Shown here: positions 23,645-61,800 of the stretch, in pieces | How the letters are laid out: the number at the start of each line of letters is the position of its first letter | How positions within the stretch are numbered: the first letter of the stretch is position 1 | DNA from: Octopus vulgaris | Lineage: Eukaryota | Assembly: GCA_951406725.2 (NCBI GenBank) | Contig: OX597831.1 | Coordinates: forward strand, 930,001-994,000 | Length of the DNA stretch: 64,000 nucleotides | Direction: 5' to 3' | The notes under the pieces: model-generated | Told to the model about the DNA's origin: nothing | The model's database searches: none | What the model saw: the letters and a program-made list of their open reading frames with translations, nothing else | Made by a program: the position numbers and the translations under genes

Positions 23645-23681
<37 letters not shown>

Positions 23682-23684
<3 letters not shown>

Positions 23685-24095
23685 TCATCATCATCATCAT
23701 CATCATTTAGCATCCGCTTTCCATGCTAGCATGGGTTGGGCAGTTCAACTGGGGTCTGGGAAGCCAGGAGGCTGCACCAGGCCCCAATCTGATCTGGCAA
23801 TGTTTCTACAGCTGGATGCCCTTCCTAACACCAACCACTCCGTGAGTGTAGTGGGTGCTTTTTACGTGCCACCGGCACAGGTGCCAGACGGGGCTGGCAA
23901 ACGGCCACGGTTGGATGGTGCTTTTCACGTGCCACCGACACGGGGACCAGGCGAGGCTGGCAACGGCCATGATCGGATGGTGCTTCTTACATGCCACCAG
24001 CACGGAGGCCCGTTGGGGCGGCGCTGGCAGTGGCCACATTCAGATGGTTCACTTACGAGCCACCGGCACTGGTATCACAAGTACAATTTCCATAC
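23682..24095 (-). mobile_element. SINE family C, long copy with 4 internal ~62-bp repeats
   Basis: (CAT)n tail, CCATGCTAGCATGG palindrome, repeated GGTGCTTTTTACGTGCCACCGGCAC. Confidence 0.85.
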
Positions 24096-24142: not shown

Positions 24143-24840
24143 TTTTATTAGCCACAGGGGCATTTGCAGAAATTGGGGATGGTAGTCAATGCTTTATAGA
24201 ACATACACTGTTTCATCAAAATGCTGTAATGAATACATGACAATTGTAAAAACATTATGCAGTCTTACACTCAACTCATCAGTATTCCACAATATATATA
24301 TATGTATACACACACACACACACACACTCACACACAAATATATATAGATATACATATAAATACATACATATACATACATACATATAAATATATTTAAACA
24401 TACACCACACACACATACAGTCATTGTAGGTCTTTACATCATACTGTCATCCAACATTAAGTATCATTACATTACATATATCATTAAAATCTCTTTAGTC
24501 GCTGCATGTTTCTCATTTTCACTTCACCATGATAGGAAGAGAACAATGTAGTTAATATAGCAACTAAATAAACCTGCATTTGGCAATCGAACTTGCTAGA
24601 AAAGACAGCCAAATATCTCTCAAATCTCTCAAGTTACATTCCTACCATCTTTAAAGAGAAAGGATACATTTAAGAATGTAGTAGCCCCTGATTTATAAAA
24701 AGACAGTCTTTAGCATTCTTATTTTTTCTTTTACTGGTTTTGGTAGTTGGACTGTGACCATGCCAAGGTACCAGTTTTAAGGGTTTTAGTCAATTACACC
24801 AACCCTGGTACTTATTTCAGTTTGATAATTCTTTCATCAA

Positions 24841-25070
24841 TTGCAGCATGGAAGACAAAATTCTGTTCTAGCATAGAATTTTTTCAGTGAACAGGTTGCG
24901 ATCTCAAAGCGACGAAAATATTTTGACAAATTAAATTTAAATGTTGAAGTGAATCTAACGATTTTTGTGTGTTTCTTAAATGGCTTATAAACACCTTCCA
25001 TGCTGCACTTGTTTTCATTCCAGCACACAATCTCAGATCAGGTCACTTGCTATGCAAGTACATATCCGTA
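24841..25070 (+). mobile_element. Asymmetric fold-back element with variant hammerhead motif (24877-24932)
   Basis: Inverted repeats GCAGCATGGAAG / CTTCCATGCTGC and AAAATTCT / AGAATTTT around CTAG; second family member at 38880-39085 (minus). Confidence 0.55.
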
Positions 25071-29337: not shown

Positions 29338-29867
29338 CATCCACAGACAGATACTCTTCTGCAAATTCTCTGTATTGTCTCAGCTTTTCAACACACCCAT
29401 CATTGCCCAGATGTCAATACATTGAAACTCTGGTCATTAAACAGTGTTTACAATCAAAATACACAATCACAGTCCATACCTTGAATTTTACAACCCAAAC
29501 ATACTCAATCAAGTAATTACATAATGTTTACAATCTAGAAGCTATTAATTGTTTCTTCACATAATGTTTAAAATCTAAACACACCCAATCAAGTGTTATT
29601 TATAATAACTAATGAAGAGTTCATATAAGTGTTTGTAATTTATATACTTTAAATCAAGTGTTTACATAATGTTTACAACTTAAACACTATCAAATTTTTA
29701 TATTGTTTATATACATAGTAAATACAATAGTAATCCAGTGATTATAGAAACATTTACAACCTACTATAAACTATAATCTTCAGAACATTCTATTGTCTAT
29801 ACTACTTTCCTATACATTCTATTACTTATACAGTTGTATATATTCTGATGACTATTCTGCTCTACTA

Positions 29868-30196
29868 TCATCATCATCATCATCATCATCGTTTAACGTC
29901 CGTTTTCCGTGCTAGCACGAGTTGGACGGTTCGACCGGGGTCTGGGAAGCTAGGGGCTGCTCCAGGCTCCAGTCTGATCTGGCAGAGTTTCTACAGCTGG
30001 ATGCCCTTCCTAACGCCAACCACTTCGTGAGTGTAGTGGGTGCTTTTTACGTGCCACCTGCACAGGTGCCGGGGGGGGGGGTCCGGCATCGATCACGATC
30101 GGTTGGAGCTTTTAACGTGCCAGCGGCACGGAAGCCAGCCAAGGCGGAGCTGGCAACATTCGGATGGTCTTTTTATGTGCCACCGGCACAGGAGCC

Positions 30197-36498: not shown

Positions 36499-36890
36499 CA
36501 TCATCATCATTTTAATGTCCACTTTAATGTCATTTAATGTCCAACCGCATGGGTCAGGTGGATTTTCTATGGCTGGATGACCTTCATATTGCTAAACCTC
36601 ACCTGTTTCCAAGTAAGGCAATATTTCCTCAATGGCTGGACATGTTCCTGCAGACTATTTGCAATGAATGGCATTGCTTGTATAACAGTGACATTCATTT
36701 ACAGCTATCACTCGATGTCAAGACAAGGAGACACACACACACACACACACACATATACATATACACACACATACAAACATATATACAATGGTTTTTCTTT
36801 CGAGTTCTGCCTACAAAATCTGCTCACTGGGCTGAATCCAGAACCATATAGTTAGGAAGCAAACTTCTTACCACACAGCCACAGTTGTGC
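36499..36890 (-). mobile_element. Chimeric SINE: family A head + microsatellite + distinct body + RTE-type tail
   Basis: Same layout at 13797-14135, 54180-54510 and 58680-59010 (+); body also at 2188-2440 and 37489-37725. Confidence 0.65.
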
Positions 36891-37982: not shown

Positions 37983-38879
37983 CTATATATAATACATATA
38001 TATATACACATATACATATATACAATGGGCTGATCAAATCCACTCAGAGGTTTTGTTGGCCTGAAGCAAGAGTAGGAGTTACTTGCTCAAAGTACCATGC
38101 AATGGGATTGAACTGGAAACCATACAGCTGGGAAGCAAACTTACCATGCAGTGAAGCCAATAGCTGCATGTAATTAATTAAGATGAATATTAATTATATT
38201 GATTACAAAAGCCTCAAAAGACCTGTGAATATCATCTGCACAAGCTTTGTCTTCTGACTAAACTATTAGGAAAATAGATAAATAAAACCTAGTCATTACC
38301 ATCTCAAGTCTATAAAATCATCAGACCATTGAATATTTTCAAAGTGTATGTCATAACACTTAGTGCATCTTAGATAATCTGTATGTATGTTGAGTGTTGT
38401 CTGAATGTATGGGCACACTTTGCAGTTGCCCAGTTTTGATCTATGTATGTTGTGGCTTGCTGTCAATAAATACTATAGGGCCCAGTGTATTGGTTTTCCT
38501 GGGGCCTGTAATGCAGCTAAGATAACCCTGGGTATGTTGAGGAAGTAAGTCAAATCTGATCAAACTTTTATGAATATTTGGCCATGGAACAATTTTTTCA
38601 TTCATTTGTTTTATGCTCACTCCGATGCTAGCATGGATTGCATGAATATATATTATTGAAACATTGTTTGACAGCTAAATGACATTCCCATTACCAACCC
38701 TTAACTTGTTTTTTTAAGTAATGTAGTTTTCATTCCATTTACCTTTGAAAATGCAGACCTACTGAATGATTGGTTGATGCGGAAATATCAATATATTTAA
38801 TAGCCGACAACTGTGCATACAATCAGACACATGACTGAAGGCAAATAATACGATATTTAATTGTTAACGAAACTTAATT

Positions 38880-39085
38880 ATAGAGATGTACTTGCATGAC
38901 AAGTGTTTTGATCTGAGATTGTGCGTTGAAACTAAAATGATTGTAGCATGGAAGACACAAACTAGCCATTAAGAAACACACAAAAACTGTTAACTCCAAT
39001 TAAACGTTTATTGTTTGTGATATGGTGTCAAAATTTTCATCCCTTGAGACTGCAATCTGGTCACTGACAAAATTTGTGCTGCATG
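38880..39085 (-). mobile_element. Second copy of the 24841-25070 family, with variant hammerhead at 39026-39069
   Basis: Minus strand reads TGTCA-GTGACCA-G-ATTGC..GGGAT-GAAA-AT-T-T-TGACA. Confidence 0.55.
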
Positions 39086-57051: not shown

Positions 57052-57421
57052 ACCTATTGAATCAAGTACATCAACATCAAAATAAAATGGAAATTGTAGT
57101 TGTGATACCCATGCCAGTGGCACGTAAAAAGCACTATCTGAATGTGGCCGGTGCCAGCGCCGCCTTGACTGGCTTCCGTGCCGGTGGCATGTAAAAAGCA
57201 CCAACCGATCATGGCCATTGCCAGCCTCCTCTAGCCCCTGTGCTGGTGTCACGTAAAAAGCACCCACTACACTCAATGAGTGTTTGGCATTAGGAAAGGC
57301 ATCCAGTTGTAGAATCACTGCCAGATCAGACTGGAGTCTGGTGCAGCCTCCTAGCTTCCCAGACCCCAGTCAAACCATCCAACCCATGCTAGCATGGAAA
57401 ACGGACGTTAAATGATGATGA
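57052..57421 (+). mobile_element. SINE family C with 3 internal repeats
   Basis: GGCACGTAAAAAGCAC x3; CCATGCTAGCATGGAAAACGGACGTTAAAT(GAT)n. Confidence 0.85.
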
Positions 57422-57810
57422 TGAATGAGGGAAATGGAAGATGGATTTAGTAAGAATCTTTATTCAGCACAACAGTCGTTTCAATCTATCCTGCATCTGT
57501 CCCTTATGGGCGAGATATAGTACACCTAATTGTGTTGCATCCATCAATGCAGGCTGTGACTTGTCAGTATATGTAGTAGTGTATCTTATTTACACTAGAC
57601 ACCTGATGAGACACAGCCTTCATTGATGGATGCAACACAACGGGATGTACTATATCTCACCATTAAGAGACAGAGGCAGGATGGGTTGAAACGATCATTG
57701 TGCTGAATGAAGATTCTTGCTAAATCTATCTTCCGTTTCCCTCATTCACTATAAACTCGTTGTAACTGTGGAATTCCTGACATAGATCCAGTGACAATCA
57801 TATTGTAACT
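57422..57810 (+). mobile_element. 327-bp fold-back element with long-stem-II hammerhead motifs
   Basis: Arms 57422-57567 and 57603-57748; right arm CAC-CTGATGA-[78 nt]-GAAA-CGATCA-TT-GTG. Confidence 0.7.
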
Positions 57811-60491: not shown

Positions 60492-61029
60492 GCACACACA
60501 TCTATACACACTCCCTGTTTATCATCTGTTTTCCTTCCCATTCACAAGCTCAGTGTCCAATGGGGATGGAGAGGGTGAAAGAAGAACCCCCCCACCGACC
60601 ACTCCTTTATCGTTTCTTCTCTCTTCCTTGCCACAGTGAGTCATATGACACAACATCCATGGAAGAAACAATAGGGAAAATCATAGCTGAAACAAAGGAT
60701 AGTGAGGAATGATAGAATAACAGAATAAGAGGATTGGGGAAAATGAGAATGAAGAAATGAAAGAAGAAAATGGTGAAGGAAGGAAGAAATGGAAGACTAG
60801 GAAAGAGAAATGAATAAGAGAATGAAAGGTATAAACACATGCACAATGTCAAGTTATTGTCAGTAACTTAGTAGTGTTATGTAGTCACTCTTAATAGTTA
60901 GTATTAATAGTTAGTATTGATAGTGACTAGTTGACTATAGTGAGCTCTGGACTGTGGAGATTAATGTAGTATTGTAGTGGTTAGGAGTTGACAGCGATGA
61001 CTAATTACTATTAGTTAATGTTGATCATT

Positions 61030-61800
61030 AGTATAGGACTGTGGTAGTTAGTACTGAAATGTAATGGTTAGTGTAGGACCAAGGTGGTTTGTATAGGACT
61101 GTGATAGTATAGGATTGTGGTGGCAAGTATAGAACTGTGGTGGTTAGTATAGGACTGTGGCGGTTAGTACAGGACTGTAATAGTGAGTATAGGACTGTGG
61201 TGGCTAGTATAGAACTGTGATGGTTAGTATAGGACTGTTGTGGTTAGTATAGGACAGCTATAGGACTGTGACAGTATAGGACTATAGTGGTTAATGTAGG
61301 ACTGTAGTGGTTAGTTTAGGAATGTGGTGGTTAGAATAGGAATGTGATGGTTAATATAGAACTGTGATGGTTAGTGCAGCATTTGATGGCTAGTTTTGGA
61401 CTGTGGCTGCTAGTATAGGATTGTGGTGGATAGTATAAGACTGAGGTTAGTATAGGACTGTGAAGGTTAGTATAGGACTGTGGTAGTTAGTACAGAAATG
61501 TAATGGTTAGTGTAGGACCATGGTGGTTTGTATAGGACTGTAGTGGTTAGTTTAGGAATGTGGTGGTTAGAATAGGAATGTGATGGTTGATATAGAACTG
61601 TGATGGTTAGTACAGCATTTGATGGCTAGTTTTGGACTGTTGTTGCTAGTATAGGATTGTGGTGGATAGTATAAGACTGAGGTTAGTATAGGACTGTGAT
61701 AGTTAGTATAGGATGGTTGTGGTTAATATAGAACTGTGATAGCTAGTATAAAATTTTGGTTGTTAATATAGGACTGTCGTTGTTAGTATAGGATTGTGAA
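61030..61800. repeat. 20-bp minisatellite (GGTTAGTATAGGACTGTGGT) with higher-order duplication
   Basis: More than 30 degenerate units; 61301-61462 is repeated at 61537-61699. Confidence 0.9.

What the first reader, a model, noticed from the sequence alone, without database searches (positions are those of the whole stretch)
24877..24932. Hammerhead variant with swapped G3-C8 catalytic-core pair
Seen: TTTCA-GTGAACA-G-GTTGC GATCTCAAA GCGAC-GAAA-ATAT-T-T-TGACA. The independent copy at 39026-39069 (minus) has TGTCA-GTGACCA-G-ATTGC..GGGAT-GAAA-AT-T-T-TGACA. Both keep G3 and C8 and differ only at free position 7 of the core. Known: C3-G8 is a Watson-Crick tertiary pair, and compensatory swaps can restore activity. 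Both copies also have an extra G after A9 and a 1-bp helix III with a palindromic loop (AATATT, AATT). Standard CUGANGA searches would miss them.
Basis: partly seen in the sequence, partly recalled or inferred. Interest (0 to 1): 0.8.

Follow-up and report, generated by a model that had tools for sequence, protein, structure and literature searches.

The report
Core-swapped hammerhead in Penelope-like retrotransposon
Thousands of copies of a Penelope-like jumping gene in this animal genome (likely an octopus) carry a hammerhead-ribozyme motif in which two paired core letters are swapped relative to the standard form kept in related elements; it likely still cuts RNA slowly, which would make it a natural version of a swap that the papers searched describe only as a laboratory mutant.

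Summary
The motif is real. It is a minimal type I hammerhead fold with G3-C8 in place of C3-G8, in the terminal repeat (pLTR) of a Penelope-like retrotransposon. The two window copies are decayed solo pLTRs of one family (72% identical), not independent copies. The genome holds 8,619 matches to the swapped core (30 in the control). Young copies follow an RT + GIY-YIG frame of up to 1,025 aa and form a pLTR-ORF-pLTR partial tandem. G3 and C8 are the majority letters in young, middle and old subfamilies. The sister lineage (tree support 100) and a metagenome outgroup have C3-G8 in the same stems, so the swap arose in this lineage as a compensatory double change. The extra G, palindromic helix III and U17 are known features of these ribozymes. 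Cleavage is untested. Only 4 of 62 copies start near the cut site, so transposition mostly uses uncut RNA. Natural U3-A8 and engineered G3-C8 (partly active) are published; nine searches found no natural G3-C8, but Lünse 2017 was unavailable. This scan noted G3-C8 candidates in two other genomes (unchecked notes). Verdict: new variant of a known kind.

The parts
24870..25070 (+). Solo pseudo-LTR (pLTR) copy of a Penelope-like element, middle-aged subfamily, ending at the longer ('tail') 3' end
   Evidence: 90-95% identical to the best-scoring genomic copies; the same unit terminates RT + GIY-YIG elements
24882..24928 (+). Minimal type I hammerhead fold with G3-C8 core: stem I 24882-86/24924-28 (one mismatch from decay), G3 24887, C8 24892, A9 24893, extra G 24894, stem II 24895-99/24909-13, GAAA 24914-17, U16.1 24922, U17 24923; predicted cut between 24923 and 24924
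24917..24922 (+). Palindromic helix III (AATATT) that would give 6 base pairs in a dimer
   Evidence: sequence
24980..25069 (+). Start codon and first 30 codons of the element's ORF, carried inside the pLTR
   Evidence: in L188 the same ATG frame runs on past the pLTR end into the ORF N-terminus
24838..24866 (-). Short inverted remnant of the same unit at the 5' side of the copy
   Evidence: sequence read directly; 29 of 62 sampled copies scored as having an inverted partner
38877..39084 (-). Older solo pLTR copy of the same family
   Evidence: 72% identical to copy 1 over 201 nt; 76-84% to its nearest genomic relatives
39026..39069 (-). Second G3-C8 hammerhead fold (N7 = C, palindrome AATT, stem II damaged by decay)

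Best explanation
The motif is the minimal hammerhead fold in the terminal repeat of a multi-copy Penelope-like retrotransposon, with the core 3-8 pair swapped from C-G to G-C in this lineage, and it likely still cuts RNA slowly, as a dimer or with help from the element's protein. Shown: location in the pLTR, link to an RT + GIY-YIG ORF, majority G3/C8 in three subfamilies, C3-G8 in the sister lineage and an outgroup, paired stems with compensatory changes. Inferred: transcription starts in the pLTR about 59 nt before the cut site; a transcript from a partial tandem carries two same-sense motifs about 4.3 kb apart that pair through the palindromic helix III; G3 pairs with C8 and holds the 2'-OH of residue 8 in place for catalysis. 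Also inferred: cutting is rare, so most reverse transcription, starting 145 or 208 nt from the RNA start, copies uncut RNA and leaves thousands of solo pLTRs such as the two in the window, which are decayed and probably inert.
For: Anatomy matches the published minimal hammerheads of Penelope-like elements in every feature but the identity of the 3-8 pair (PMC4209133). L188 is a pLTR-ORF-pLTR partial tandem; L183 has a 1,025-aa open frame with GIY-YIG (PF01541, E 1.8e-5) followed by the unit at 100% identity to the young reference copy. G3: 33 of 33 young, 68 of 72 middle, 25 of 27 old copies; C8: 32 of 33, 70 of 72, 26 of 27. Majority letters differ between subfamilies at 3 of 33 core and stem positions (all CpG-type transitions) against 51 of 149 downstream positions (Fisher p 0.003, after removing 3 misaligned columns). 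Helix III changed length (AATT, AATATT) and stayed palindromic. In 12 hand-picked copies 97% of cells pair and 7 of 12 pairs change on both sides; pair 3-8 is G-C in 8 and C-G in 4. Family A and family B ORFs are sisters (SH-aLRT 100, quick tree) and outgroup L291 has C3-G8. The engineered C3G/G8C double mutant partly restores cleavage in a Penelope-like hammerhead whose single mutants are dead, and that ribozyme needs the element's protein (PMC11167929).
Against: No cleavage assay. Only 4 of 62 copies begin within 4 nt of the cut site against 20 of 62 at the upstream start: no genomic trace of frequent cutting. The young sister family B carries another core change, C at position 9 in 47 of 47 parsed copies, which may mean that the core is only loosely constrained in this clade. 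The drawn active-type dimer is 7-8 kcal/mol above the best predicted dimer for young and middle copies, and 18-20 above it for the window copies (tertiary contacts are not modelled). Related sequences can beat the shuffle control without any structure, and the 12 rows were chosen because they parse. In PMC11167929 hammerhead mutants did not affect insertion in vitro.
Confidence: 0.65

Rival explanations
1. The motif descends from a hammerhead but no longer cuts at a useful rate; the fold is kept as a binding or promoter-proximal structure, or simply hitch-hikes, and the double change was fixed by drift in a master copy.
For: Copies mostly derive from uncut RNA. The sister family has A9C. Hammerhead mutants did not affect insertion in vitro (PMC11167929), and Naiad elements spread without canonical hammerheads (PMC8557442).
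Against: The two changes restore exactly a Watson-Crick 3-8 pair; U4, G5, A6, A9, G12-A15.1 and U16.1 stay as majority letters across three subfamilies while loops, N7 and a third of the downstream positions change; helix III stays palindromic through an indel.
Confidence: 0.27
2. The motif is an efficient ribozyme that makes unit-length or circular RNA as the main transposition intermediate, as proposed for retrozymes.
For: Two same-sense motifs flank the ORF in a partial tandem; one copy starts exactly at the cut site (L261); this role was proposed in PMC4209133.
Against: 5' ends cluster 59 nt upstream of the cut site; no short head-to-tail arrays among the loci examined; the engineered swap only partly restores activity (PMC11167929, PMC8495972).
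Confidence: 0.06
3. A chance hairpin in a repeat that only resembles a hammerhead.
For: No Rfam match; the window copies fold poorly.
Against: Related lineages have the canonical core at the same place in the same stems; no G3-C8 hit in 40 shuffles; it lies where Penelope-like elements carry their hammerheads.
Confidence: 0.02

Closest known systems
Minimal type I hammerheads (min-HHR) of Penelope-like element pLTRs (Cervera & de la Peña 2014, PMC4209133)
   Same: Type I topology, short stem I, G10.1-C11.1, extra nucleotide between 9 and 10.1, palindromic helix III for dimer formation, U17 common, location in the pLTR, thousands of solo copies
   Different: G3-C8 instead of C3-G8. None of the 56 representative motifs in that paper's Fig. 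S3 has G3; the 3-8 covariant it reports is U3-A8 in Schistosoma mansoni
Natural U3-A8 hammerhead core variants (Perreault 2011, PMC3088659; Cervera 2014)
   Same: Compensatory change that keeps the tertiary 3-8 Watson-Crick pair
   Different: U3-A8 needs two transitions and can pass through a U3-G8 wobble (seen in one Fig. S3 row); G3-C8 needs two transversions with an unpaired intermediate
Engineered C3G/G8C hammerheads, including PAc, a Poseidon element of Anolis carolinensis (Frangieh 2024, PMC11167929)
   Same: Same swap; PAc has a like layout: hammerhead near the ORF start in the pLTR, two reverse-transcription start sites giving a tail, uncut RNA as the main substrate
   Different: There the swap is a laboratory rescue mutant; here it is the natural state of a family. 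The cut site here lies 56 nt before the ATG rather than 26 nt after it; the tail is about 63 nt rather than 30-40
C-terminal EN+ Penelope-like elements, Nematis-like (clades as in Craig 2021, PMC8557442)
   Same: Single ORF with RT motifs and C-terminal GIY-YIG, partial tandem, inverted 5'-truncated copies, tail at one end, short CxxC linker like the Nematis rows of Fig. S2 (compared by eye)
   Different: Clade not tested with named references; the stretch between RT motifs A and B' is longer than in the Nematis examples shown

Membership tests
Canonical hammerhead core (CUGANGA...GAAA...UH) | C at 3 and G at 8 | tested here: not met
   G3 and C8 in both window copies and as majority letters in all three subfamilies; filed as a variant, not as a canonical member
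Canonical hammerhead core (CUGANGA...GAAA...UH) | Watson-Crick pair between positions 3 and 8 | tested here: met
   G-C in 8 and C-G in 4 of 12 aligned copies; sequence complementarity only, no structure
Canonical hammerhead core (CUGANGA...GAAA...UH) | U4 G5 A6, A9, G12 A13 A14, A15.1-U16.1, H17 | tested here: met
   in the old subfamily G12 reads A in 9 of 27 copies, which fits CpG decay
min-HHR of Penelope-like elements | Stems I and II closing a type I three-way junction, G10.1-C11.1 | tested here: met
   MFE fold of young copy L188, z -2.04; pair counts. The window copies are decayed and do not fold so alone
min-HHR of Penelope-like elements | Extra nucleotide between 9 and 10.1; palindromic helix III | tested here: met
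   extra G; AATATT and AATT give 6 of 6 and 4 of 4 pairs in a dimer
min-HHR of Penelope-like elements | Located in the pLTR of a Penelope-like element | tested here: met
min-HHR of Penelope-like elements | Site-specific self-cleavage (weak, dimeric or protein-assisted) | not testable with these tools
   no assay; indirect 5'-end count shows no clear excess at the cut site (4 of 62)
EN+ Penelope-like element | C-terminal GIY-YIG endonuclease | tested here: met
   PF01541, E 1.8e-5, above curated cut-off, residues 915-1005 of 1,025; not matched in the L182 and L245 frames at E 0.1
EN+ Penelope-like element | Reverse transcriptase domain | tested here: inconclusive
   RT motifs visible in the translation (DKSG, SMDVVSLYPSI, GAIG...DVANL, YVDD) and like rows of PMC8557442 Fig. 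S1; the top homologue is named 'Reverse transcriptase domain-containing'; Pfam RVT_1 and PDB sequences gave no match
EN+ Penelope-like element | Partial tandem forming pLTRs, inverted 5'-truncated copies, optional tail | tested here: met
   L188 tandem; inverted pairs with the tail at one end in L171, L184, L186, L191, L192; 29 of 62 copies with an inverted partner
Nematis clade | RT phylogeny with named Nematis elements; short zinc-finger-like linker before GIY-YIG | tested here: inconclusive
   linker resembles Nematis rows and not Neptune rows by eye; no named reference was in the tree
Non-LTR retrozyme | Short non-coding head-to-tail tandem units with a hammerhead | tested here: not met
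   copies are dispersed solo or inverted pLTRs of a coding element

The most novel reading that the evidence does not exclude
This retrotransposon clade is selected for slow ribozymes. The cut site lies between the likely capped RNA start and the start codon, and upstream of the reverse-transcription start sites, so fast cutting would remove the cap and break the template. One lineage crossed a two-transversion valley to G3-C8 and its sister changed A9 to C as separate ways of slowing a still-needed ribozyme. If so, this is a naturally fixed G3-C8 ribozyme in a recently active element, and a class of thousands of genomic hammerheads is invisible to CUGANGA searches.
Probability: 0.2. Interest if true: 0.8.

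Novelty: new variant of a known kind. Interest (0 to 1): 0.56.

Why it matters
What hammerheads do for Penelope-like elements is open: PMC8557442 calls their function unclear, and PMC11167929 found them dispensable for insertion in vitro. A compensatory swap of a tertiary core pair, fixed in a lineage that then made thousands of copies, is the kind of sign expected if the catalytic fold is under selection. The family comes with near-intact ORFs and natural comparators (C3-G8/A9 old relatives, a C3-G8/C9 young sister), so rate against role can be tested directly. It also shows that descriptor searches with a fixed CUGANGA miss whole families: here 8,619 pattern matches in one genome.

Tried and rejected
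Rfam gathering scan of the window: no match. First partner candidate rejected: L092 is an insertion of the unit into an unrelated Hydra-clade-like ORF; a young family of that type has its own canonical hammerhead and no pLTR similarity. Splice-acceptor reading of the 5' boundary: 458 copies have a CTAAC...pyrimidine...AG stretch upstream, but copies that start there abut the target with no shared exon, so a transcription start is preferred; splicing is not excluded. Revertant subfamily: 35 family-context matches with C3, of which 28 are C3-C8, 4 C3-A8 and 3 C3-G8; those inspected were single-mutant copies of this family, copies of the related C3-G8 lineage, or unrelated. RNA evidence: no RNA holder listed on record; contigs of four runs cover the unit, but cannot show ends, strand or expression. 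Pfam RVT_1 and PDB sequence searches gave nothing for the ORF. The first subfamily comparison (p 0.028) was distorted by a misplaced 2-nt gap in old copies and by ragged 5' ends; it was recounted (3 columns corrected, the 17 upstream columns dropped). The cluster of 5' ends at +43 is at least partly an alignment artefact of loop II differences. The careful tree did not finish; the quick tree is cited. The third short match at 36820-36829 is not part of the family. Lünse 2017 (PMC5785218) and Przybilski & Hammann 2007 (PMC1986816) were not held.

Full report
Observation. Both parse as type I minimal hammerheads with G at 3 and C at 8, an extra G after A9, a 5-bp stem II, GAAA, a palindrome running from A15.1 to U16.1, U17 and a 5-bp stem I. 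A relaxed descriptor allowing any Watson-Crick 3-8 pair finds only these two hits in the window; 40 blockwise dinucleotide shuffles gave a mean of 0.05 hits and no G3-C8 hit. Rfam has no match at gathering threshold. The two copies are not independent: they are 72% identical over 201 nt. Both are decayed and do not fold into the junction alone, whereas a young copy does as its minimum-energy structure, with 7 of 200 shuffles as stable.

The repeat. The window lies in a 2.8-Gb, microsatellite-rich genome. The closest named homologue of the element's ORF is annotated Octopus vulgaris, and its last 113 residues match this genome at 100%, so the host is likely an octopus. The swapped-core pattern has 8,619 matches against 30 for the reversed control. 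In 30 loci from that list the unit starts about 25 nt before the core, ends at one of two 3' points (145 or 208 nt from the start) and often abuts (TA)n. Of 62 copies chosen by their 3' end, 29 scored as having an inverted partner at the 5' side. These are the marks of Penelope-like insertions described in PMC8557442 (passages, section 11 and one supplement part read) and PMC11167929 (passages read).

The autonomous element. Three loci showed a shared upstream extension; 458 genomic copies carry it. Walking upstream led through a (CATA)n-rich 3' region of about 1 kb to the end of a GIY-YIG domain. A search with that domain returned 150 scored matches of 8,461 candidates, with open frames up to 1,025 aa. 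Of those I fetched 13 with long frames; all 13 carry the unit at 98-100% identity to a young reference copy. L183 has the 1,025-aa frame, with PF01541 at E 1.8e-5. L188 is a partial tandem, pLTR-ORF-pLTR, in which the ATG inside the first pLTR runs on into the ORF N-terminus (that copy has a stop and a frameshift further on). RT motifs are visible by eye, but Pfam RVT_1 and PDB sequences did not match. The short linker before the endonuclease looks like the Nematis rows of Fig. S2 in PMC8557442; this is a comparison by eye, not a clade test.

Direction of the change. Among 132 near-full copies, G3 is present in 33 of 33 young, 68 of 72 middle and 25 of 27 old copies, and C8 in 32 of 33, 70 of 72 and 26 of 27; mean identity to the group majority is 98.5%, 95.1% and 86.5%. 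A family-context search for C at 3 found only 35 matches: 28 C3-C8, 4 C3-A8, 3 C3-G8. Inspecting them, and 4 more from a second pattern, revealed an old related family (C) with a canonical core in nearly the same stems I and II. Its downstream peptides resemble the N-terminus of a young family (B) with 1,311-aa frames, whose ORF is 54% identical to ours over 815 residues. Families A and B are sisters among 34 proteins (SH-aLRT 100, quick tree only). Family B has C3-G8 but C at position 9 in all 47 parsed copies. An outgroup metagenome contig, L291, has a canonical C3-G8 motif just behind its ORF (parsed by eye). So C3-G8 is ancestral and G3-C8 arose once on branch A, before its oldest sampled subfamily.

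Signs of constraint. Decay after insertion is neutral, so only differences between subfamilies bear on selection. Majority letters differ at 3 of 33 core and stem positions, all CpG-type transitions, at 8 of 13 loop and N7 positions, and at 51 of 149 downstream positions (Fisher p 0.003). These figures follow a correction: three columns misaligned by a 2-nt gap were recounted without gaps, and 17 ragged upstream columns were dropped; the uncorrected test gave p 0.028. The downstream region is partly coding, so it is not a neutral yardstick. Helix III went from AATT to AATATT and stayed palindromic. On 12 copies from families A, B and C, chosen because they parse, 97.2% of cells pair and 7 of 12 pairs change on both sides, above all 500 shuffles and all slid controls; relatedness and selection of rows inflate this.

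How it likely works. Of 62 copies, 20 begin within 4 nt of one point 59 nt upstream of the cut site, 4 begin within 4 nt of the cut site, 22 inside the motif, 11 downstream and 5 upstream. Where the start abuts AT-rich target, the base before it is G in 15 of 66 cases, though neither the template (C or T) nor (TA)n supplies a G (counted from the listing); in other loci it is G in 16 of 28, partly through microhomology with inverted partners. I read this as a capped transcription start whose cap is copied as an extra G (inference; the cap-G effect is recalled, not from a call). A splice acceptor at the same place is the alternative, since a branch-point-like motif and pyrimidine tract precede it and the Drosophila virilis element has an intron ending at helix I (PMC4209133), but no shared upstream exon was seen. 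On this reading the RNA starts in the pLTR, passes the hammerhead, and meets the ATG 56 nt after the cut site. A read-through transcript of a partial tandem has two same-sense motifs that could pair through helix III (6 of 6 pairs), although that drawn dimer is 7-8 kcal/mol above the best predicted dimer. Inverted copies lie head to head and cannot supply the second motif. Reverse transcription starts downstream of the motif, so cutting would break the template; the 5' ends suggest that it mostly does not happen before copying, as found for PAc (PMC11167929).

Comparison with what is known. PMC4209133 (parts 1-2 of 4 of the text, parts 1-2 of 3 of supplementary file 2; file 1 could not be searched) describes the extra nucleotide, G10.1-C11.1, the palindromic helix III, weak dimeric cleavage and a natural U3-A8 variant; none of its 56 representative motifs has G3. 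PMC3088659 (passages) reports U3-A8 as the natural covariant and rejects other core changes in its filter. PMC11167929, PMC8495972 and PMC3884650 (passages) mention G3-C8 only as an engineered, partly active form. PMC6765202 and PMC6155905 (passages) and bioRxiv 10.64898/2026.07.22.740005 (term search, one passage; supplement not seen) added nothing on G3-C8. Nine searches found no natural G3-C8 hammerhead. The library lacks most subscription papers; Lünse 2017, a large survey of these variants, was not held and could contain such a record. Two unchecked notes of this scan report G3-C8 candidates behind Penelope-like RTs in other genomes; I did not test them.

Verdict. A real, lineage-wide compensatory core variant of the known minimal hammerheads of Penelope-like elements: new variant of a known kind, interest 0.56. 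Slow catalysis is the most likely function (0.65); a non-cutting relic is the main rival (0.27). The window's own copies are ordinary decayed solo pLTRs; the interest lies in the family.

Noticed in passing
L235:2580-2630 +, L243-L245 (family B): Young sister Penelope-like family with 1,311-aa open frames in ~4.6-kb tandems; its hammerhead has C3-G8 but C instead of A at core position 9 in 47 of 47 parsed copies, with compensatory stem changes relative to its old relatives.
   Followed up: partly
L209-L212, L195, L205 (family C): Old solo pLTR family with canonical core in nearly the same stems as the G3-C8 family; downstream peptides resemble the family B N-terminus.
   Followed up: partly
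L132, L135, L137, L139, L140: Young Hydra-clade-like Penelope family (RWK and DKT motifs), dozens of 727-aa open frames, with a canonical CUGAUGA hammerhead-like motif upstream of the ORF.
   Followed up: partly
L092:4387-4733: An inverted pair of the G3-C8 unit inserted inside the ORF of an older Hydra-clade-like element; a G3-C8 element also lies next to a Neptune-like ORF in L142 and L178.
   Followed up: partly
L183:2971-6045 -: The stretch between RT motifs A and B' is much longer than in the Nematis, Neptune and Poseidon rows of PMC8557442 Fig. S1, like an insertion in the fingers domain.
   Followed up: no
L183:1990-2970 -: The element's 3' region carries internal (CATA)n microsatellites and so spreads them through the genome.
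   Followed up: no
L147:1501-1522 oriented; 458 genomic matches: Branch-point-like CTAAC, pyrimidine tract and AG immediately before the common 5' boundary; may be a splice acceptor, an initiator, or both.
   Followed up: partly
window 23648-24072, 29866-30194, 57087-57424: Other abundant dispersed repeats with a 63-bp internal unit (SINE-like) near the finding; not part of the element.
   Followed up: no
window 61028-61798: Minisatellite of about 39 copies of a 20-bp unit.
   Followed up: no
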